Part shown: positions 1-44,071 of the stretch, piece after piece | How the letters are laid out: each line of letters begins with the position of its first letter | How positions within the stretch are numbered: position 1 is the stretch's first letter | Source: Candidatus Parcubacteria bacterium | GTDB lineage: Bacteria; Patescibacteriota; Patescibacteriia; Magasanikbacterales; UBA922 | Length of the DNA: 54,348 nt | Assembly (NCBI GenBank): GCA_018646705.1 | Contig: JABGUG010000011.1 | Coordinates: forward strand, 1 to 54,348 | Reading direction: 5' to 3' | Notes under the pieces: model-generated | Database searches by the model: none | Told to the model about the DNA's origin: nothing | What the model saw: the letters and a program-made list of their open reading frames with translations, nothing else | Position numbers and translations under genes: made by a program

Positions 1-2
1 GG

Positions 3-189
3 GGGTGTGGGTAACGGGCGAGGATTTGAACCTCCGAAGGCGGTTTATCGCCAGAGTCAGACAGTGTGCAGTCTCTTCTTCTAAAACATAGTTCTTGCCT
101 GTTGAGACTCAACTGCGTCATCTGACGGCCGACCAAGACTCCGGTTAAGGAGCCCCCCTTTCCTAACTCGGGCACCGTAGTCCCACACC
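3..189 (-). ncRNA. tRNA-like RNA (tRNA-Tyr-like scaffold) with large insertions in the anticodon region; 3' end at window edge
   Basis: Minus strand reads GGTGTGGGACTACGG-TG-CCCGAGTTAGGAAAGGG (class II D arm) ... GTCAGA/TCTGAC stem ... GGCG-ATAAAC-CGCC variable arm, GGAGG-TTCAAAT-CCTCG T arm, CCGTTACCCACACC. The ends pair. No 7-nt anticodon loop. Confidence 0.6.
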
Positions 190-278
190 AGCCCTAGTAC
201 TATATTAATGTTAACATCATAAACATTTTGAATTAATAGATAAGTAGAAAGTTTATAAAGACTTTATAAAATAACGTT

Positions 279-1020: not shown

Positions 1021-2259
1021 ATGAATTTTGTTGAAAGTATTACTGGTTCATGGAAAATAATCACTCGTAGTAAAGTGCGGTCGTTTTTGACTATGCTTGG
1101 AATTATTATTGGTGTCATGGCGGTTATTATTGTAATGTCAGTTGGGGCTGGCGCACAGAGTCTTATTCTCAATCAAATAAAAAGTGTTGGATCTAATATT
1201 GTAGGTGTTATGCCTGGGGCAGCAGAAGAAGATGGTCCGCCTGCATCAGTCATGGGTATTGTGATTACTACACTTACATATGAAGATGGAAAAGAAATTG
1301 AAAAAAAAGGGTGTGATTGTATAGAAGCGTTAGCAATGTATGTGAGTGGTAATGAGACGATTACTTTGGAAGACACGACTGTTAATACGACGTTTACTGG
1401 TGCTACAGCAAGCTATCTAGATGTGGAAGACACAAATGTGGTAGAAGGTAGATTTTTTAGTGAAGATGAAGAGAAAGGCGTTGCACGCGTTGTAGTGCTC
1501 GGTGATGAAGTGAAAGAAAAATTATTTGGTGATCAAAATGCTGTTGGGCGAAAAATTAGAATTAAAAAAGTAAACTTTACAGTCATCGGTGTGATGAAAA
1601 AGAGGGGTATAAGTGGTTTTCAAAATCAAGATGATCAAGTGTTTGTGCCAATTAGTACTGTTCAAAAATTACTTTTGGGGATAGATCATGTGAGTATGGT
1701 GAGGGCAAAAGTAGACACTGGAGAAAATGTAGAAAAGGCAATGGAGAGTATGAGAAGTATTTTGCGAGATCGACACGATTTGGATTCTGATGAAAAAGAT
1801 GATTTTGTGGTTAGATCTATGGCCCAAGGTTTGGAGGCCCTATCAACCGTTACTAATGCTCTTAAATTTTTCTTAGTCGCTATTTCTGCTATCGCACTTG
1901 TTGTTGGTGGTTTTGGTATTATGAATATCATGTTGGCAACTGTTCAAGAGCGTACTCGTGAGATTGGTCTGCGAAAAGCAGTTGGTGCTAAGTCACGTGA
2001 TATCACTTTACAATTTTTAGTAGAATCTGTTGTTATTACTTTTGTGGGAGGAGTACTTGGTATTTTATTTGGTGTTTTGATTTCTGTGTTAGTTGCGTAT
2101 GTCGCTCAGAAAATGGGATATAAGTGGGATCTTGTTATTACCGTATCATCTATTTTGCTTGGGTGTGGTGTGTCAATTGGTATAGGGCTTGTATTTGGAA
2201 TAATTCCTGCACGTCGTGCAAGTAAATTAAATGCAATTGAAGCATTACGTTACGAATAA
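1021..2259 (+). CDS. ABC transporter permease (MacB/FtsX-like)
   Basis: RSFLTMLGIIIGV N-terminal TM, large periplasmic domain, GIMNIMLATVQERTREIGLRKAVGA motif. Confidence 0.93.
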   Translation: MNFVESITGSWKIITRSKVRSFLTMLGIIIGVMAVIIVMSVGAGAQSLILNQIKSVGSNIVGVMPGAAEEDGPPASVMGIVITTLTYEDGKEIEKKGCDCIEALAMYVSGNETITLEDTTVNTTFTGATASYLDVEDTNVVEGRFFSEDEEKGVARVVVLGDEVKEKLFGDQNAVGRKIRIKKVNFTVIGVMKKRGISGFQNQDDQVFVPISTVQKLLLGIDHVSMVRAKVDTGENVEKAMESMRSILRDRHDLDSDEKDDFVVRSMAQGLEALSTVTNALKFFLVAISAIALVVGGFGIMNIMLATVQERTREIGLRKAVGAKSRDITLQFLVESVVITFVGGVLGILFGVLISVLVAYVAQKMGYKWDLVITVSSILLGCGVSIGIGLVFGIIPARRASKLNAIEALRYE

Positions 2260-2263
2260 TATT

Positions 2264-3505
2264 ATGTTATTAAAAGATACTATACAACTTGGATTTTCAA
2301 CTCTTATGCGTCAGAAATTACGTACGACTTTGACTACCATAGCCCTTGGTATTGGTATTGCGTCAGTTGTAATAATATTATCTGCTGGCAGAGGGCTTGA
2401 AGGTTTGATTGTTGGTGAGCTTGATATATATAATCCAAATGCACTTAATATTGAGGTCAGAATACCAGGTAAGGGTGAAACAGGAAGTGCTACAGGAATG
2501 GCAAGTGGTGTCACTATTACTACACTTAAAAATGCAGACACAGAAGAGATCGAAAAACATGAAAATATTGATTCAACTTATGATTATGTTACTGGCCAAG
2601 AAGTTCTTAAGTATGGTGGAGAAAACAAAACAGTAATATTATTTGGTTATGGAGCGAACGCGTCAAAAGTAGAAAAGATGTCTTTTGAAGAGGGAAGATT
2701 TTATGAAAAGTCAGAAGAAGATTCTCTTGCTCAAGTTTTAGTTATAGGATATGGAATCAAAGAAGAATTTTTTGGTGAAGATAGCGCAGTAGGAAAAAAT
2801 GTATATATACGCGGTAAATCTTATAAGGTCGTAGGAGTAATGGCTGAGCGTGGAGCTTCGTTTGGTTTTGATTATGATGATTTAGTATATATCCCTACAA
2901 AGACGTTGCAAAAGAGACTTCTTGGTACCGACTATGTGATGGGAATAATGGGTCGTGTAATAGACATGACAAAAATTGATCAGACAAAAGCTGATGTAGA
3001 GTATTTGCTTAGAGATAGGCATGATATTACAGATCCTGACAAGGATGATTTTCAAGTAACAACAATGGACGAAATACAAGATATGCTTGGTACAATTGTT
3101 GGTGGAATAACTTTACTTTTGGTTGCTCTTGTCTGTATTTCTCTCATTGTGGCTGGGGTAGGCATTACAAATATAATGTACGTAACAGTGGCTGAAAGAA
3201 CATTTGAAATTGGTTTAAGAAAATCTCTTGGTGCAAAAAATAAAGATATTTTGTGGCAGTTTCTGATAGAAGCAATGATGCTGACTTCAGCTGGTGGTGT
3301 GGTTGGGGTAATTTTGGGATTTTTTGTGTCATATGCAATATATTATGGTGCAGTGAGTTATGGGCTAGATTGGATTTTTTCTGTTCCTCTTTATTCTATA
3401 GTTTTAGCAATAAGTTTTTCTACATTTGTAGGGTTATTCTTTGGTATTTATCCAGCTAAGAAAGCTGCAAATTTGGATCCTATAGTAGCTCTTAGGAAGG
3501 AATAG
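2264..3505 (+). CDS. Second ABC transporter permease (MacB/FtsX-like)
   Basis: Paralog of the preceding gene, GITNIMYVTVAERTFEIGLRKSLGA motif. Start moved to ATG 2264, after the upstream stop. Confidence 0.92.
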   Translation: MLLKDTIQLGFSTLMRQKLRTTLTTIALGIGIASVVIILSAGRGLEGLIVGELDIYNPNALNIEVRIPGKGETGSATGMASGVTITTLKNADTEEIEKHENIDSTYDYVTGQEVLKYGGENKTVILFGYGANASKVEKMSFEEGRFYEKSEEDSLAQVLVIGYGIKEEFFGEDSAVGKNVYIRGKSYKVVGVMAERGASFGFDYDDLVYIPTKTLQKRLLGTDYVMGIMGRVIDMTKIDQTKADVEYLLRDRHDITDPDKDDFQVTTMDEIQDMLGTIVGGITLLLVALVCISLIVAGVGITNIMYVTVAERTFEIGLRKSLGAKNKDILWQFLIEAMMLTSAGGVVGVILGFFVSYAIYYGAVSYGLDWIFSVPLYSIVLAISFSTFVGLFFGIYPAKKAANLDPIVALRKE

Positions 3506-3515
3506 TGACTTATAT

Positions 3516-3544
3516 AAAAACACTGACCTTATAGGTCAGTTTTT
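3516..3544. terminator. Likely bidirectional intrinsic terminator
   Basis: ACTGACCT-TAT-AGGTCAGT stem (3522-3540) with an A-run before and a T-run after, between convergent units. Confidence 0.7.
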
Positions 3545-3566
3545 GTTTAAATATGAAATTAGGGGG

Positions 3567-3600
3567 CCTTGGTCGATACTGCGTAATGTATCGACCAAGG
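3567..3600 (-). other. 13-bp perfect hairpin 3' of the tRNA-like RNA
   Basis: CCTTGGTCGATAC (3567-3579) / GTATCGACCAAGG (3588-3600). Confidence 0.8.
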
Positions 3601-3605
3601 TGTCG

Positions 3606-3699
3606 TGGGCGGGCCTGGGAGGTATCGAACCTCCGGCCGCAGAAAATCCCCCAGGCAATAAAGGAAATTCCGCCGCTCTGCCAGCTGAGCTACAGGCCC
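3606..3699 (-). ncRNA. tRNA-like RNA with an elongated anticodon arm (25 nt in place of the 7-nt loop)
   Basis: GGGCCTG/CAGGCCC acceptor, TA, GCTC-AGCTGGCA-GAGC D arm, GCGGA/TCTGC stem, 4-nt variable loop, GGAGG-TTCGATA-CCTCC T arm, 3' GCCCA. Confidence 0.8.
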
Positions 3700-3972
3700 A
3701 CAAAAAAGACTCGAGAGGGTGTTCGTGCCGAAGCACGCAATCTACAACCTACTACTACTGAACTCGAGACGTACTTCGAAGTACAAAGTAGGTTTTCGAT
3801 ATCTGAAGGGTCCGCGAGGGGATGGGGCACCTTCATGAGAGCATATCCCTCAAGAGCCTTTGTTGCGTATCGCAGTAGTGGAATCGTGTCCTATCCGCCG
3901 TCTTTTCCTATATCACCGCAAGTAGTGTATGGATATGATTGGCGGTTATGTACACTCTACTACGAGACTATC
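3700..3972 (-). ncRNA. Candidate structured ncRNA (~270 nt) upstream of the tRNA-like element
   Basis: GC-rich with several stems (3965-3957/3878-3870; 3861-3847/3719-3705). C-UUCG-G hairpin at 3737-3724 on the minus strand. Own promoter. Confidence 0.55.
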
Positions 3973-3978
3973 GTGATG

Positions 3979-4007
3979 ATTAAACATTATTTTTGTAATA
4001 TTGTCAA
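3979..4007 (-). promoter_or_regulatory. sigma70-like promoter
   Basis: TTGACA (4007-4002), 17-nt spacer, TTTAAT (3984-3979; mismatch at the conserved -11 A). Confidence 0.55.
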
Positions 4008-4065
4008 TGGCACTTAGTCACAGTATGATTGCGCTATATAGGTAAATTTGATATTATATATCTAT

Positions 4066-4776
4066 ATGTTAGAAATTATTTGGAACGATTTTCTGTATAA
4101 GCCGTTGTTTAACGCGCTTATTTGGCTATATAATAATTGGGCTGACCAAAATCTTGGATGGGCTATTGTTTACCTGACCATTGGATTGCGTTTATTTCTT
4201 CTTCCATTTACTATCATTGGGGAAAAAAATAAAATAAAGAACATCGGTGTTATAGATGAGATGAAACGCATAGACAAGGAGTATCACAATGATGAGGTTC
4301 TCAAAAAAGAAGAATTACGAAAAGTCATTAAAAAACGTAAAATTAAACCTTGGACAACTATTGTTACACTTGGTGTTCAATTGCTCGTATTGGTATTGTT
4401 GTATCAGGTATTTATACAGGGGATTACTGGCGAGCGTATTTTGAAAGTGCTTTATGATGGTATAAATTTTCCAGGAAGCATCAATACTATGTTTTTTGGG
4501 TTTGATCTAGGGGCAACTCATGATATAGTGTGGTCAGGCGCAGTAGGATTATTCTTATTATTAGAAATATACCTTGATTATAAGGATAGAAAACCAACAA
4601 TATCTCAATCTGACCTATTTTATTTCATATTATTTCCATTGGCGTCCTTCCTTGTTCTATGGTGGCTTCCTATGGTAAAGTCAGTGTTCATCTTGACATC
4701 TTTGATATTTTCTGCTATAGTCCACCAGTTTATAAAACTATTATTTAAATCTGCGAAAGCAGTAAAAAAAGCTTAA
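4066..4776 (+). CDS. YidC/Oxa1 family membrane protein insertase (short form)
   Basis: LYKPLFNALIWLY...NLGWAIVYLTIGLRLFLLPF N-terminus, cytoplasmic helical hairpin, several TM segments. Confidence 0.8.
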   Translation: MLEIIWNDFLYKPLFNALIWLYNNWADQNLGWAIVYLTIGLRLFLLPFTIIGEKNKIKNIGVIDEMKRIDKEYHNDEVLKKEELRKVIKKRKIKPWTTIVTLGVQLLVLVLLYQVFIQGITGERILKVLYDGINFPGSINTMFFGFDLGATHDIVWSGAVGLFLLLEIYLDYKDRKPTISQSDLFYFILFPLASFLVLWWLPMVKSVFILTSLIFSAIVHQFIKLLFKSAKAVKKA

Positions 4777-4787
4777 CCTAGCACAAT

Positions 4788-5405
4788 ATGGCTGGAGATT
4801 CACTCGATAAACTCATGTATTCATTTGTCATGGAGGACGTCCTCAAGGGCTTATTTATATATGTTCCACCTGGATATGTGGCATGTGTATATGATCTTGG
4901 TCGTGGAGTTTTGAAAAAAGTATTGACCCCAGGTCTTCATTTCAAGATTCCTTTTTGGCAAAAAGCCAAATTATTCAATACTCAGACACTTGAGTATGGT
5001 ATTAGTCGTGATTTTAACCCAGAAAACCTAAAAGCAATGGGTGATGTGCCAATCGCTGCAGTTACGAAAGATAGCAAGCGTATTGCAGTAGAGGGAACAG
5101 TGCTTTTGCGTCTAGATATTCATCAGATCCCGCATATTTGGCAAACTATTGGTGAAGATTTCGTAGAAAAGATTATTCGTCCTACAATCCGTAGTCGAAT
5201 GAGAATGGTTGCAAGTAGGTTTGATCAAGAAGAGATTGTTGGTGCAAAGCGTGATTCTATGGAGACAGAGCTTAAAAATGAGTTAGAGCGTATATTTTAT
5301 CCACGTGGTATCTATATAGAAAATATTCTTCTTAGTGAGATTGGTAACGTTTCAGAGTTCAAGCGTGTAGCAAAGGTTCCAGAGGGAGAAGAGGAAAAGA
5401 CTTAA
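4788..5405 (+). CDS. SPFH/prohibitin (band 7) family protein
   Basis: VPPGYVACV...LTPGLHFKIPFWQK, TKD, IIRPTIRSRMR, GIYIENILL motifs. Confidence 0.85.
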   Translation: MAGDSLDKLMYSFVMEDVLKGLFIYVPPGYVACVYDLGRGVLKKVLTPGLHFKIPFWQKAKLFNTQTLEYGISRDFNPENLKAMGDVPIAAVTKDSKRIAVEGTVLLRLDIHQIPHIWQTIGEDFVEKIIRPTIRSRMRMVASRFDQEEIVGAKRDSMETELKNELERIFYPRGIYIENILLSEIGNVSEFKRVAKVPEGEEEKT

Positions 5406-39646: not shown

Positions 39647-39676
39647 AAAGACTCACCTTATCAGGTGAGTTTTTTT
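39647..39676 (+). terminator. rplU terminator
   Basis: ACTCACCT-TATC-AGGTGAGT followed by a T-run. Confidence 0.8.
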
Positions 39677-39711
39677 GTTGACATTTTTTTCATAATAAAA
39701 TAAGATGATAT

Positions 39712-39943
39712 GGTCGACTGGCTCTGGCGGATGCTGATAGAGGGTTAAAGTTGCTCTTCTAGGAGAGTTCCTGATATAGGGTTCGTTCTTAGGGGCTTGT
39801 AAAAGTTCTAGAGTGGTCGTCCGGCCGGCTTTGGATGTTGCGTCTAGCCTAAGATATTTCGGTATCACAGGTGTGCAGACGGATGTCCAAGGTCGGTCCT
39901 TCTCTCTCTATTTCCACCTCTTCTGGTTAAGAGGTGTTTTTTT
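39712..39943 (+). ncRNA. Candidate structured ncRNA A (~230 nt, two rod domains)
   Basis: Promoter TTGACA (39678)-17-TAAGAT (39701); 17-bp stem 39823-39839/39882-39898 with 6 G-U pairs; UUCG loop; terminator 39915-39943. Confidence 0.7.
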
Positions 39944-39992
39944 ATACACAGACTCTATTGACAACGAGGGTATTTTGAAGTATGCTGATGCG

Positions 39993-40432
39993 TCAGCTCA
40001 TTTTTAAACTAACCGTGGGTCTCCATACAAGTTGCTAGTGGATATCGTTGTTAAACGATGTCTTGATTGGGGAATCATAAAGCGCTAGTGCGTGGACTCA
40101 CGGTTTAGATACGCTAAGATGATCGACCGGGGTTTCTTCTCCCAGCCCTATCTTCTTTTGCCTTACATTGCCCCTCGCGGGGTCGTCACAGGCTGTTGCT
40201 CCCCACGAGCGAAAGAAGATTGCCATGACGGTGCCTGCCCCTTTTTCGGGGACCGCCGTTGTCCGGTAGGACGAGTCATCGATGCCGCGCAAGCGCTCAC
40301 AACGTCCAGGGTCTCCACCCGTTTTTCAATACCCCCGCCTGGAGACTTACGTTGTGACGCTTGTGCGGCACTTCCTCTCTGCCCATAAAATTTATGTATA
40401 GAGAAGAAAAATCCACCGTTATGGTGGATTTT
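39993..40432 (+). ncRNA. Candidate structured ncRNA B (~430 nt)
   Basis: Promoter TTGACA (39958)-17-TATGCT (39981); stems 40011-21/40095-105, 40150-61/40209-20, 40283-317/40340-70; ends at terminator 40408-40432. Confidence 0.65.
40408..40432. terminator. Bidirectional terminator
   Basis: AAAATCCACCG-TTA-TGGTGGATTTT abutting the recR stop. Confidence 0.8.
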
Positions 40433-43393: not shown

Positions 43394-43564
43394 GTTGCTG
43401 TATCTTACCTCACAACCCTCAAATGATCAACCCGTGTTTTTAGGTAATATGTGTGCAACATGTGGAGACTGTGTTGACAAAAGTGGATAATTTTGGTTGT
43501 ATAGTGTATAAGAAATAACCGTTCGAAGGGTCGAGCGGTTTACGTCCACGTTGAGGGGGAGTCA

Positions 43565-43885
43565 ATGAGCAGGAAGACTGGTCCGAAGAAGAAGTCAGGT
43601 CGCATTCGGTTCGCCGAAGCTGGGGCGAAAGGCACTGACGCTGGGATCGTGAATCGCATCATCGTCCCGAAAGATCACGAGGTCAGCTCTACGCAGGTCT
43701 GGAAGCTGGCGGTCCAGAACAAGGCCGCTGCCGGTGGGAAGATCCTCATCTCTGTCGGGGATGAGGAAGCGCGTCTCATCTCCCACGATGACCTGTCGGA
43801 CGATCTCTGGCTGAAGAAGAAGGCTGCTCGCGCTGCGAAGCGCGGGCGTTCCCGTTGGGCCCACATCGGGGTCACCACCTCCTAG
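43565..43885 (+). CDS. GC-rich hypothetical basic protein
   Basis: 106 aa, SD-like GAGGGGGAG at 43553-43561, GC-ending codons, upstream TTGACA and 5' hairpin. Confidence 0.65.
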   Translation: MSRKTGPKKKSGRIRFAEAGAKGTDAGIVNRIIVPKDHEVSSTQVWKLAVQNKAAAGGKILISVGDEEARLISHDDLSDDLWLKKKAARAAKRGRSRWAHIGVTTS

Positions 43886-44071
43886 ACAAGGGAGTACCGA
43901 CGATGAAGGCTTACCTTTGTTTCGGCCGGCGGATACCGCCCGGCATGGATCTCAGGGCGTGTACGAACCTCGTTCGCACCGCCCGCATTTTTACCAAGTT
44001 TTGGTAGAAGTGCGGGGAGGAAGATCATGTAGTTACATGGTGTGCGAGCGGGGTTTTATGTTATACTGATT

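What the first reader, a model, noticed from the sequence alone, without database searches (positions are those of the whole stretch)
3567..4007. ~400-nt non-coding transcription unit: two structured domains, a tRNA mimic and a 13-bp hairpin
Seen on the minus strand: promoter TTGACA-17-TTTAAT. Domain 1 is closed by TCGTAGTAG/CTACTGCGA, with an inner AGTGTA/TACACT hairpin whose loop CCGCC (3945-3941) can pair with GGCGG (3899-3895), a possible pseudoknot. Domain 2 is closed by AAAGGCTC..GAGGG/CCCTC..GAGTCTTT and holds TGAAGG/CCTTCA, AACCTACT/AGTAGGTT and CGTGC-TTCG-GCACG hairpins. The tRNA-like element and a perfect hairpin follow. The C-UUCG-G loop supports this strand. I see no RNase P, tmRNA or SRP signature. 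Inference: an undescribed multi-domain ncRNA.
Basis: partly seen in the sequence, partly recalled or inferred. Interest (0 to 1): 0.78.

Follow-up and report, generated by a model that had tools for sequence, protein, structure and literature searches.

The report
Orphan non-coding cassette with anticodon-less tRNA mimic
A roughly 500-base GC-rich, strongly folding, probably non-coding insert carrying a tRNA look-alike without a normal anticodon loop sits between two membrane-protein genes of a tiny marine bacterium, but no related genome searched carries it, so it is a species-specific oddity and not a demonstrable new RNA family.

Summary
The described features are all present. There is a GC-rich island (49-54% GC against 36% for the genome) between an ftsX-like gene and yidC. 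On the minus strand it holds a promoter-like site, two folded domains (3965-3870 and 3861-3705), a tRNA-like element (3699-3610; Rfam tRNA 45.8 bits), a perfect 13-bp hairpin and a bidirectional terminator. Rfam finds nothing else, even at E<=10.

The tRNA-like element keeps its acceptor, D and T arms, but its anticodon arm is a helix of about 15 bp, so it cannot decode.

The island is an orphan. It is missing from the same ftsX-yidC spacer in the congener (29 nt there against 538 nt here) and in a more distant relative. BLAST over 60 and 400 Patescibacteria genomes, a covariance model over 149 relatives and 74 syntenic loci, phage and plasmid collections, and a 5.8-billion-protein search with the spurious overlapping ORF all found nothing convincing.

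Covariation therefore cannot be tested, and no RNA run holds the sequence.

Best reading (0.38): a recently gained non-coding cassette, transcribed as one unit, in which the tRNA mimic acts as an RNase P/3'-processing handle. Nearly as likely (0.35): an inert relic of foreign or mobile DNA with a disabled tRNA gene. Interest is modest.

The parts
4002..4007 (-). -35-like hexamer TTGACA of the putative cassette promoter. It overlaps the plus-strand -35 (TTGTCA, 4001-4006) of the predicted yidC promoter.
   Evidence: Sequence read; plus-strand promoter TTGTCA-17-TATGAT (4001-4029).
3979..3984 (-). -10-like hexamer TTTAAT, 17 nt after the -35. It lacks the consensus A at position 2.
   Evidence: not listed by the promoter scan.
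3870..3965 (-). Domain 1: a 9-bp closing helix around alternative inner folds (a 6-bp hairpin, or CCGCC/GGCGG as a nested helix).
   Evidence: sequence; folds.
3705..3861 (-). Domain 2: an 8+5-bp closing helix around a multi-way junction with three hairpins, one capped C-UUCG-G. A 20-nt C-rich loop lies at about 3829-3810. A U6 run follows.
   Evidence: Used as covariance model R1. The single population variant, at 3829, lies in a loop.
3610..3699 (-). tRNA-like element. Acceptor stem 7/7 and T stem 5/5 Watson-Crick pairs, canonical D arm and T loop, G73, then CCCA to 3606.
   Evidence: Rfam RF00005 at 45.8 bits; ARAGORN.
3639..3673 (-). Expanded anticodon arm: 6 bp, a 2x2 U/U internal loop, then 7 bp (three U-G pairs), ending in a 5-7-nt tip loop that contains UGC.
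   Evidence: Fold; 22-nt insertion in the Rfam alignment; ARAGORN models it as a 16-nt 'intron'.
3567..3600 (-). Perfect 13-bp hairpin with an 8-nt loop, directly after the tRNA-like element. No T run follows it.
   Evidence: I4, 100% complementary.
3513..3549 (.). Bidirectional intrinsic terminator: 8-bp stem at 3522-3540 with T runs on both strands. It serves ftsX (plus strand) and the cassette (minus strand).
   Evidence: (I2).
3506..4043 (.). Segment with no alignable counterpart in the congener G001, where 29 nt separate the flanking homologous blocks.
   Evidence: blastn blocks: window 2271-3505 and 4044-4124 against G001 4057-5291 and 5321-5401; short spacers in L041 and L070.

Best explanation
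The island is a lineage-specific, non-coding cassette. This species gained it after splitting from its sequenced congener. The host is a marine Patescibacteria (CPR) bacterium whose nearest named relatives are labelled Magasanikbacteria.

I infer that it is transcribed from the minus strand as one primary RNA of about 450 nt. The order is: promoter-like site at 4007-3979, domain 1, domain 2, U-rich linker, tRNA-like element, 13-bp hairpin, terminator.

The tRNA-like element keeps everything that tRNA-processing enzymes recognise: a perfect acceptor stem, the D/T elbow nucleotides, a U at position -1, and G73 followed by CC. It has lost the decoding end, because its anticodon arm is a helix of about 15 bp.

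The most likely mechanism (inferred, not shown) is as follows. RNase P cuts 5' of G3699. This releases a structured 5' RNA of about 270 nt that ends in a stem plus U tail, and a separate 90-nt tRNA mimic. The mimic therefore acts as a built-in 3'-end-forming and stabilising module for the upstream RNA. The biological role of the 5' RNA is unknown.

Because the cassette's -35 hexamer overlaps the -35 of the yidC promoter, transcription of the cassette may also compete with yidC transcription.
For: Anatomy, shown directly:
- GC island of 49-53.5% in a 36% GC genome.
- Modular fold of the whole unit, in which each segment forms its own domain.
- z = -3.05 for the 5' RNA and z = -2.31 for the tRNA-like element.
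- A C-UUCG-G hairpin and a perfect 13-bp hairpin.
- A terminator in the right orientation.

tRNA-like element:
- Rfam tRNA at 45.8 bits with all 71 model positions aligned and an undamaged acceptor, D arm and T arm.
- It ranks 38th of 39 tRNA-model matches in the genome and has no close paralogue.

Non-coding:
- The only long ORF (154 aa, plus strand) has no Pfam hit.
- That ORF is antisense to the tRNA-like element and has no homologue outside its own cluster.

Fixed in the population:
- Pieces identical to the window occur in contigs of 4 of 4 marine runs laid, from four studies.
- The spurious ORF is recorded on 10 contigs, with one variant (3829, in a loop).

Gain rather than core gene:
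- Absent from the same spacer in G001 (yidC 94% identical) and in L070 (80% identical).
Against: - No expression data: no listed holder of the sequence is an RNA run.
- No homologue anywhere, so no covariation.
- The plus strand folds as well as the minus strand.
- The -10 hexamer lacks the conserved A, and the promoter scan did not list the site.
- The -35 hexamer could be only the yidC -35 read backwards.
- At least one other GC-rich insert specific to this genome, at 43.5-43.95 kb, looks protein-coding. High GC may therefore reflect foreign origin rather than selection for RNA structure.
- RNase P cleavage is inferred from general knowledge of substrate recognition, not tested.
Confidence: 0.38

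Rival explanations
1. Inert relic. The island is a piece of foreign or mobile DNA that landed between ftsX and yidC. It would be a disabled tRNA gene copy with a small hairpin expansion in its anticodon arm, plus flanking non-coding DNA. It has no function of its own, and its apparent structure and high GC are inherited from the donor.
For: - Presence/absence difference between congeners and an empty site in a further relative.
- No homologue or paralogue in any search.
- The tRNA-like element cannot decode.
- Another GC-rich insert specific to this genome exists at 43.5-43.95 kb.
- Many contig ends of this assembly are unrelated GC-rich stretches.
- Earlier unchecked notes of this scan report small inserts that split or follow tRNA gene copies in CPR genomes.
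- The -35 hexamer is shared with yidC.
Against: - No flanking copy of the tRNA 3' end, and no clear target-site duplication. The only flanking direct repeat is an AT-rich 25-mer at 72% identity.
- No recombinase or integrase among 15 neighbouring proteins.
- No second copy in the genome.
- The tRNA-like stems are perfect and all elbow nucleotides are intact. The expansion forms a continuous helix, which is not what drift in an AT-biased genome would leave for long.
Confidence: 0.35
2. The tRNA mimic itself is the product, and the 285 nt upstream is only a long leader. An anticodon-less tRNA-like RNA could serve as a decoy or ligand for tRNA-binding proteins (nucleases, modification enzymes, CCA-adding enzyme), or as a non-ribosomal aminoacyl carrier.
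For: - The top half of the tRNA is intact.
- Other genera of the family carry tRNA-like genes without a normal anticodon loop at the equivalent place, divergent from yidC. L050/G024 is 119 nt with a branched arm, and G3:U70 with A73 by my reading. L061/G019 is 88 nt with a GUAA-capped arm.
- In all, 6 of 30 relatives' yidC loci (L040, the window's own locus, counted among the 30 and the 6) have some tRNA or tRNA-like call within 1.5 kb upstream. In 0 of 16 metagenome loci is there one.
Against: - These tRNA-likes are not alignable with one another, and their acceptor stems differ.
- The element here has G3-C70 and G73, so it lacks the alanine identity pair, although its 5' half most resembles tRNA-Ala genes of relatives (14 of 27 best hits).
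- The congener has none at this site.
- No partner protein was identified.
Confidence: 0.15
3. It is protein-coding: either the 154-aa plus-strand ORF (3553-4017) that exactly fills the ftsX-yidC gap, or the 48-aa minus-strand ORF (3836-3690) preceded by GAGGG.
For: - The plus-strand ORF is co-directional with its neighbours and has been called by gene finders on 10 contigs.
- The minus-strand ORF has a possible ribosome-binding site 10 nt upstream.
Against: - No Pfam family.
- The translation is arginine-, cysteine- and tryptophan-rich, and it runs antisense through a 45.8-bit tRNA hit.
- No homologue among 5.8 billion proteins beyond its own cluster.
- Long stop-free frames are expected in GC-rich DNA within an AT-rich genome.
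- The 48-aa ORF runs into the tRNA-like element.
Confidence: 0.04
4. It is a very divergent housekeeping RNA, namely the SRP RNA or 6S RNA that Rfam fails to find in this genome.
For: RF00169, RF01854 and RF00013 give no match in the genome.
Against: - The congener lacks the element at an intact locus, and neither BLAST nor the covariance model found it elsewhere in that genome.
- No Ffh M domain (PF02978) and no SRP54-type GTPase above cut-off (PF00448, best 18.7 bits) were found, so there is no SRP protein for it to bind.
- RF00169 is missing in 26 of 26 genomes of the order, so the gap in SRP detection is lineage-wide whereas this element is species-specific.
- Its shape is not a single long 6S-like hairpin.
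Confidence: 0.02

Closest known systems
MALAT1/MEN-beta with mascRNA (eukaryotic long ncRNAs whose 3' end is made by RNase P cutting at a downstream tRNA-like element; recalled, no paper read here)
   Same: A structured RNA is followed directly by a tRNA-like element with an intact acceptor/T/D top half and an aberrant anticodon arm. The upstream RNA ends in a helix plus a U-rich tract.
   Different: The host is a bacterium. Cleavage is not shown. There is no sequence or family relationship. The element is species-specific, not conserved.
Orphan or anticodon-less tRNA-like genes and disabled tRNA gene copies carrying small inserts
   Same: A well-formed tRNA look-alike that cannot decode. It was gained recently, and close relatives do not carry it.
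   Different: Here it lies downstream of a 285-nt structured RNA in what looks like one transcription unit. No repeated insert family and no tRNA-end repeats were found.
ROOL and GOLLD large ornate RNAs (Rfam RF03087 and RF01998 as named; often next to tRNA genes - recalled)
   Same: A GC-rich, highly structured non-coding RNA candidate adjacent to a tRNA-type gene, in accessory DNA.
   Different: No Rfam match even at E<=10. It is much smaller (285 nt), with no conserved family and no phage context.
Bacterial Y RNA (YrlA) tRNA-like module bound by Rsr/Ro60 (recalled)
   Same: tRNA mimicry with the anticodon arm replaced by a long helix.
   Different: No TROVE/Rsr gene in the genome. The RNA ends are at the acceptor stem, as in a true tRNA. 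No Rfam hit.
tmRNA
   Same: A tRNA-like top half joined to additional structured RNA.
   Different: The genuine tmRNA is on contig C25 at 120.9 bits. Here the cloverleaf is contiguous with a normal D arm, has G3-C70, and has no tag reading frame.

Membership tests
tRNA (functional, decoding) | Cloverleaf that scores above the Rfam RF00005 gathering threshold, with conserved elbow nucleotides | tested here: met
   45.8 bits against 29; model positions 1-71 all aligned.
tRNA (functional, decoding) | 5-bp anticodon stem closed by a 7-nt loop that presents an anticodon | tested here: not met
   22 extra nt in the arm. The fold gives a helix of about 15 bp with a 5-nt tip loop. ARAGORN's 'Gly-tcc' needs a 16-nt intron.
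tRNA (functional, decoding) | Needed to complete the genome's anticodon set, and conserved in relatives | tested here: not met
   Regular tRNA-Gly(tcc), Glu(ttc) and Ala(tgc) genes exist elsewhere in the genome. The element is absent from the congener's locus.
tmRNA | Match to RF00023, tag reading frame, G3:U70 | tested here: not met
   The only strong RF00023 match is on C25. The acceptor stem here has G3-C70.
RNase P RNA | Match to RF00010 / conserved P4 core | tested here: not met
   The genome's RNase P RNA is on C22 at 88.2 bits. No hit in the finding region at E<=10.
SRP RNA | Match to RF00169 or RF01854, and an Ffh M domain to bind it | tested here: not met
   No match in the genome. 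PF02978 absent. PF00448 only 18.7 bits.
6S RNA | Match to RF00013; a single long hairpin with a central bubble | tested here: not met
   No match. The fold is multi-domain.
ROOL / GOLLD / other Rfam large RNAs | Covariance-model match | tested here: not met
   cmscan over all 4227 families, both at gathering scores and at E<=10, gave only the tRNA hit and four chance-level hits of 15-20 bits.
Y RNA (YrlA) | An Rsr/Ro60 (TROVE) partner encoded in the genome | tested here: not met
   PF05731 has no match in the 97% complete genome.
Integrative element scar at a tRNA gene (att repeats) | Direct repeat of the tRNA 3' end flanking the insert; a recombinase nearby or a repeated element family | tested here: not met
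   No such repeat. No recombinase among 15 neighbouring proteins. No other copy in the genome.
tRNA-like 3'-end processing module (works like MALAT1-mascRNA) | RNase P cleavage at the 5' side of the tRNA-like element releases the upstream RNA | not testable with these tools
   Only the arrangement and the substrate-like features are seen (U at -1, perfect acceptor stem, intact elbow, G73 followed by CC).
Conserved structured ncRNA family (any) | Homologues with compensatory base changes | tested here: not met
   No homologue found:
- 0 of 60 relatives matched beyond the tRNA 5' half.
- 400 Patescibacteria genomes gave only 19-39-nt hits, best E 0.003.
- Model R1 gave 1 of 149 relatives, at 16.8 bits, E 0.04.
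- Model R1 gave 0 of 74 loci.

The most novel reading that the evidence does not exclude
This would be a bacterial counterpart of the MALAT1/mascRNA design. A newly acquired structured RNA of about 270 nt would get its 3' end, and perhaps its stability, from RNase P cleavage at an anticodon-less tRNA mimic. The released mimic, with a 15-bp arm, would be a second stable product. The cassette promoter would be interlocked with the yidC promoter, so the two compete. Similar anticodon-less tRNA-like genes next to yidC in two other genera (L050, L061) would then hint at a recurrent, rapidly evolving class of tRNA-mimic RNAs in this CPR family.
Probability: 0.15. Interest if true: 0.7.

Novelty: new variant of a known kind. 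Interest (0 to 1): 0.35.

Why it matters
If the cassette is transcribed and processed as proposed, it would show tRNA mimicry used for RNA 3'-end formation in a bacterium. It would also show how CPR genomes acquire new structured RNAs.

As it stands, it is a single-species orphan with no expression or covariation evidence. Its main value is as a well-delimited test case: an insertion of about 510 bp with an empty site in the congener. It is also a pointer to the many unclassified GC-rich RNA-like islands and aberrant tRNA-like genes in this lineage.

Tried and rejected
Known families
- Rfam at gathering scores and at E<=10 gave only the tRNA hit.

Housekeeping RNA
- Rejected. See the SRP/6S rival.

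Homologue hunts, all negative
- Own genome, blastn.
- All-against-all comparison of 324 GC-rich islands of the genome.
- 60 relatives: 24 of 61 genomes matched, but every non-self match covered only query positions 300-345, the 5' half of the tRNA-like element.
- 400 Patescibacteria genomes: 19 of 401 had short chance-level hits.
- Phages and plasmids.
- Covariance model R1 of domain 2 in 149 relatives and in 74 yidC loci.
- The spurious 154-aa ORF against 5.8 billion proteins.
- This scan's earlier findings, looked up by sequence.
- I built no model for domain 1.

Synteny
- yidC loci of 29 relatives (two are cut short upstream: L044 and L055), 16 of the 20 metagenome loci, and 31 genome-contig loci.
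- None carries a recognisable copy. Several carry other GC-rich islands that I could not align to this one.

Expression
- The look-up of sequencing runs listed no RNA holder.
- The four DNA runs laid are low-depth contigs. Most pieces are identical to the window, and one short piece in X12 has three differences and runs on unlike the window. They show no joints or indels, so they give neither covariation nor a cassette-free allele.

Mobile-element signatures
- No tRNA-end repeat, no convincing target duplication, no recombinase.

tRNA origin
- No close paralogue in the genome.

Literature
- 'Candidate Phyla Radiation' + 'noncoding RNA' + 'tRNA-like': 0 papers.
- 'Patescibacteria' + 'SRP RNA': 1 paper. 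I read its single passage, which is irrelevant.
- A third search gave general RNase P and tmRNA papers. I saw the listing only.

Uninformative call
- (tRNA model in five relatives): its listing was cut before the low-scoring, aberrant hits.

Full report
Context

The window is contig C45 of a 1.04-Mb, 64-contig genome that is 97% complete. Its GC content is 36.1%. The genes around the finding are bacterial: an ABC ATPase, two MacB/FtsX-type permeases, yidC, an SPFH protein, hrcA, grpE, hsp20, dnaK and dnaJ. Relatives found with YidC are labelled Candidatus Magasanikbacteria, Parcubacteria or Patescibacteria. The sequence occurs in marine and seawater metagenome runs.

The observation

Region 3506-4047 lies between the ftsX-like gene (2231-3505, plus strand) and yidC (4048-4776, plus strand). 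It is a GC island of 49-53.5% (windows 3501-3900).

- TTGACA (4007-4002), 17 nt, TTTAAT (3984-3979).
- Domain 1 (3965-3870).
- Domain 2 (3861-3705), ending in a stem followed by U6.
- A tRNA-like element.
- A perfect 13-bp hairpin at 3600-3567.

The 285-nt 5' part folds to -86.4 kcal/mol (z = -3.05; 2 of 200 shuffles fold as well). The plus strand folds equally well (z = -2.85). The whole unit folds modularly.

The strand call rests on the tRNA hit, the UUCG tetraloop and six G-U pairs in the named helices. The CCGCC/GGCGG 'pseudoknot' is a plain nested helix in the minimum-energy fold and competes with the 6-bp hairpin. Nothing here can decide between the two.

The promoter is weaker evidence than it looks. 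The scan did not list it, because the -10 lacks the A at position 2. Its -35 also overlaps the -35 of the predicted yidC promoter, TTGTCA-17-TATGAT at 4001-4029.

The tRNA-like element

Rfam tRNA scores 45.8 bits over 3699-3610, with all 71 model positions aligned and 22 extra nucleotides in the anticodon arm. ARAGORN calls a 95-nt 'tRNA-Gly(tcc)'. With introns allowed, it calls the same gene with a 16-nt intron.

The acceptor stem (7 bp), the T stem (5 bp), the D arm and the T loop are canonical. The anticodon arm folds into 6 bp, a 2x2 U/U loop and 7 bp, with a 5-nt tip loop. An arm of that length cannot present an anticodon the way a decoding tRNA does.

It ranks 38th of 39 tRNA-model matches in the genome. 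Regular tRNA-Gly(tcc), Glu(ttc) and Ala(tgc) genes exist elsewhere, and it has no close paralogue.

Its 5' half most resembles tRNA-Ala genes of relatives. The 27 best hits were Ala 14, Lys 10, Thr 2 and Ile 1. The tip loop contains UGC. However, the acceptor stem has G3-C70 and G73, not the alanine identity pair; that identity rule is recalled knowledge, not a tool result.

What it is not

- Rfam finds no other family at gathering scores or at E<=10.
- RNase P RNA is on C22 and tmRNA is on C25.
- SRP RNA and 6S RNA are not found in the genome, but this element cannot be either. No Ffh M domain and no SRP54-type GTPase above cut-off are found. Small SRP RNA is undetected in 26 of 26 genomes of the order. 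The congener lacks this element altogether.
- No Rsr/TROVE gene is present, which counts against a Y-RNA reading.
- The 154-aa plus-strand ORF that fills the gap has no Pfam family. It is antisense to the tRNA-like element and has no homologue beyond its own 90% cluster.

It is an orphan and a recent gain

In the congener G001 (YidC 94% identical), blastn aligns window 2271-3505 and 4044-4124 to blocks that lie only 29 nt apart. The same blocks are 538 nt apart here (sequence). A metagenome relative with YidC 80% identical (L070) also has ftsX next to yidC, with a spacer of about 70 nt and no element. Parsimony therefore favours a gain in this lineage.

No part of the 5' RNA or the hairpin was found in any of these searches:
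- The own genome.
- 60 relatives, where all non-self hits covered only the 5' half of the tRNA-like element.
- 400 genomes sampled across the phylum, which gave only 19-39-nt hits with best E 0.003.
- Phage and plasmid collections.
- 149 relatives searched with a covariance model of domain 2, which gave one hit at 16.8 bits, E 0.04.
- 74 yidC loci, which gave none.

Population data add little:
- Four of four marine runs laid hold pieces of the window. Nearly all are identical to it; one short piece in X12 differs and runs on unlike the window.
- The only variant on record is one substitution at 3829, in a predicted loop.
- No RNA run was listed.
- Covariation and expression therefore remain untested.

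Comparative hints

Other genera have other GC-rich islands divergent from yidC. Some contain tRNA-like genes without a normal anticodon loop. L050/G024 has a 119-nt element with a branched arm. L061/G019 has an 88-nt element with a GUAA-capped arm. L062/G010 has the same order of parts: promoter, structured RNA of about 230 nt, U-rich linker, tRNA, long hairpins, terminator.

None of these aligns with the element here. They show a recurring theme, not homology.

Within the window, a second aberrant tRNA-like RNA (1-221) and one further GC-rich RNA-like unit (39.7-39.94 kb) are conserved in G001. The GC-rich 106-aa ORF island at 43.5-43.95 kb is specific to this genome, like the finding. The genome thus holds both conserved structured RNAs and accessory GC-rich inserts, and the finding belongs to the accessory set.

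Mechanism

Shown: the anatomy, the tRNA-family match, the absence of coding evidence, the absence from relatives, and the fixation in the sampled population.

Inferred: transcription from the minus strand; RNase P cleavage 5' of G3699, suggested by the U at -1, the perfect acceptor stem, the intact elbow, and G73 followed by CC; release of a 5' RNA of about 270 nt ending in a stem plus U tail, and of a 90-nt mimic; and possible competition with the yidC promoter through the overlapping -35 hexamers.

I give this reading 0.38. The inert-relic reading gets 0.35, 'the mimic is the product' 0.15, protein-coding 0.04, and a divergent housekeeping RNA 0.02.

Comparison with known systems

The closest functional analogy is the MALAT1/mascRNA arrangement (recalled). 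The closest descriptive class is orphan anticodon-less tRNA-like genes and disabled tRNA copies in phage and CPR genomes (recalled, plus unchecked earlier notes). The element fails the tested membership features of decoding tRNA, tmRNA, RNase P RNA, SRP RNA, 6S RNA, Y RNA, ROOL/GOLLD and att-scar elements.

Verdict

This is a real, well-delimited, probably non-coding and strongly structured cassette with a genuine tRNA mimic. It is a single-species orphan with no evidence of expression or of selection on its structure. Interest 0.35.

Noticed in passing
window 1-221 (minus strand), cut by the contig end: A second aberrant tRNA-like RNA. It has a class-II-type D arm, an acceptor helix longer than 7 bp, an insertion of about 110 nt where the variable arm sits, and a T arm. 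It is conserved in congener G001, within an 82%-identical block, with apparently compensatory changes in the acceptor extension and anticodon stem. Its 6-nt loop differs between the two genomes. ARAGORN and Rfam do not call it.
   Followed up: partly
whole genome G000 and its order: The SRP system is not detectable. RF00169 is found in 0 of 26 genomes of the order, and RF01854 in 0 of 1. The Ffh M domain PF02978 has no match. The SRP54-type GTPase PF00448 has only an 18.7-bit match, below its cut-off. The genome is 97% complete. If real, loss or extreme divergence of Ffh, FtsY and 4.5S RNA would be notable.
   Followed up: partly
window 39660-39945 (plus strand): A GC-rich unit of about 220 nt between rplU and recR, with a TTGACA promoter-like site and an intrinsic terminator. 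It has no Rfam hit and is conserved in G001, within a 79%-identical block. It is a candidate core ncRNA.
   Followed up: partly
window 39955-40430 (plus strand): A second unit of about 400 nt, GC-rich and hairpin-dense, with a TTGACA-17-TATGCT promoter-like site and a terminator, next to recR. It has no Rfam hit. G001's contigs break inside its counterpart.
   Followed up: no
window 43504-43952: A GC-rich island holding a 106-aa ORF (43565-43885) with a strong ribosome-binding site and a TTGACA promoter-like site. It has no Pfam family and does not align with G001, whose flanks lie 223 nt apart. It is another accessory GC-rich insert.
   Followed up: partly
genome G000, contig ends: Over twenty contigs begin or end in GC-rich stretches (52% GC or more) that are unrelated to one another. 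Some look protein-coding. They may be accessory islands that break the assembly, or chimeric ends.
   Followed up: partly
genome G000: Neither ARAGORN (38 tRNAs) nor Rfam (39 matches) found a tRNA-Asp. ARAGORN predicts a tRNA-Leu(cag) with a 695-nt intron on C28 when introns are allowed; the Rfam tRNA search lists no match there. The RNase P RNA match spans 544 nt against a 367-position model and scores below the gathering threshold (88 against 100 bits).
   Followed up: no
L050 (G024) 2296-2414; L061 (G019); L063 (G004): Upstream of yidC in other genera:
- L050 (G024): a 119-nt tRNA-like gene with a branched arm in place of the anticodon loop, and G3:U70 plus A73 by my reading.
- L061 (G019): an 88-nt tRNA-like element with a GUAA-capped arm.
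- L063 (G004): two tandem structured repeats of about 165 nt.
   Followed up: partly
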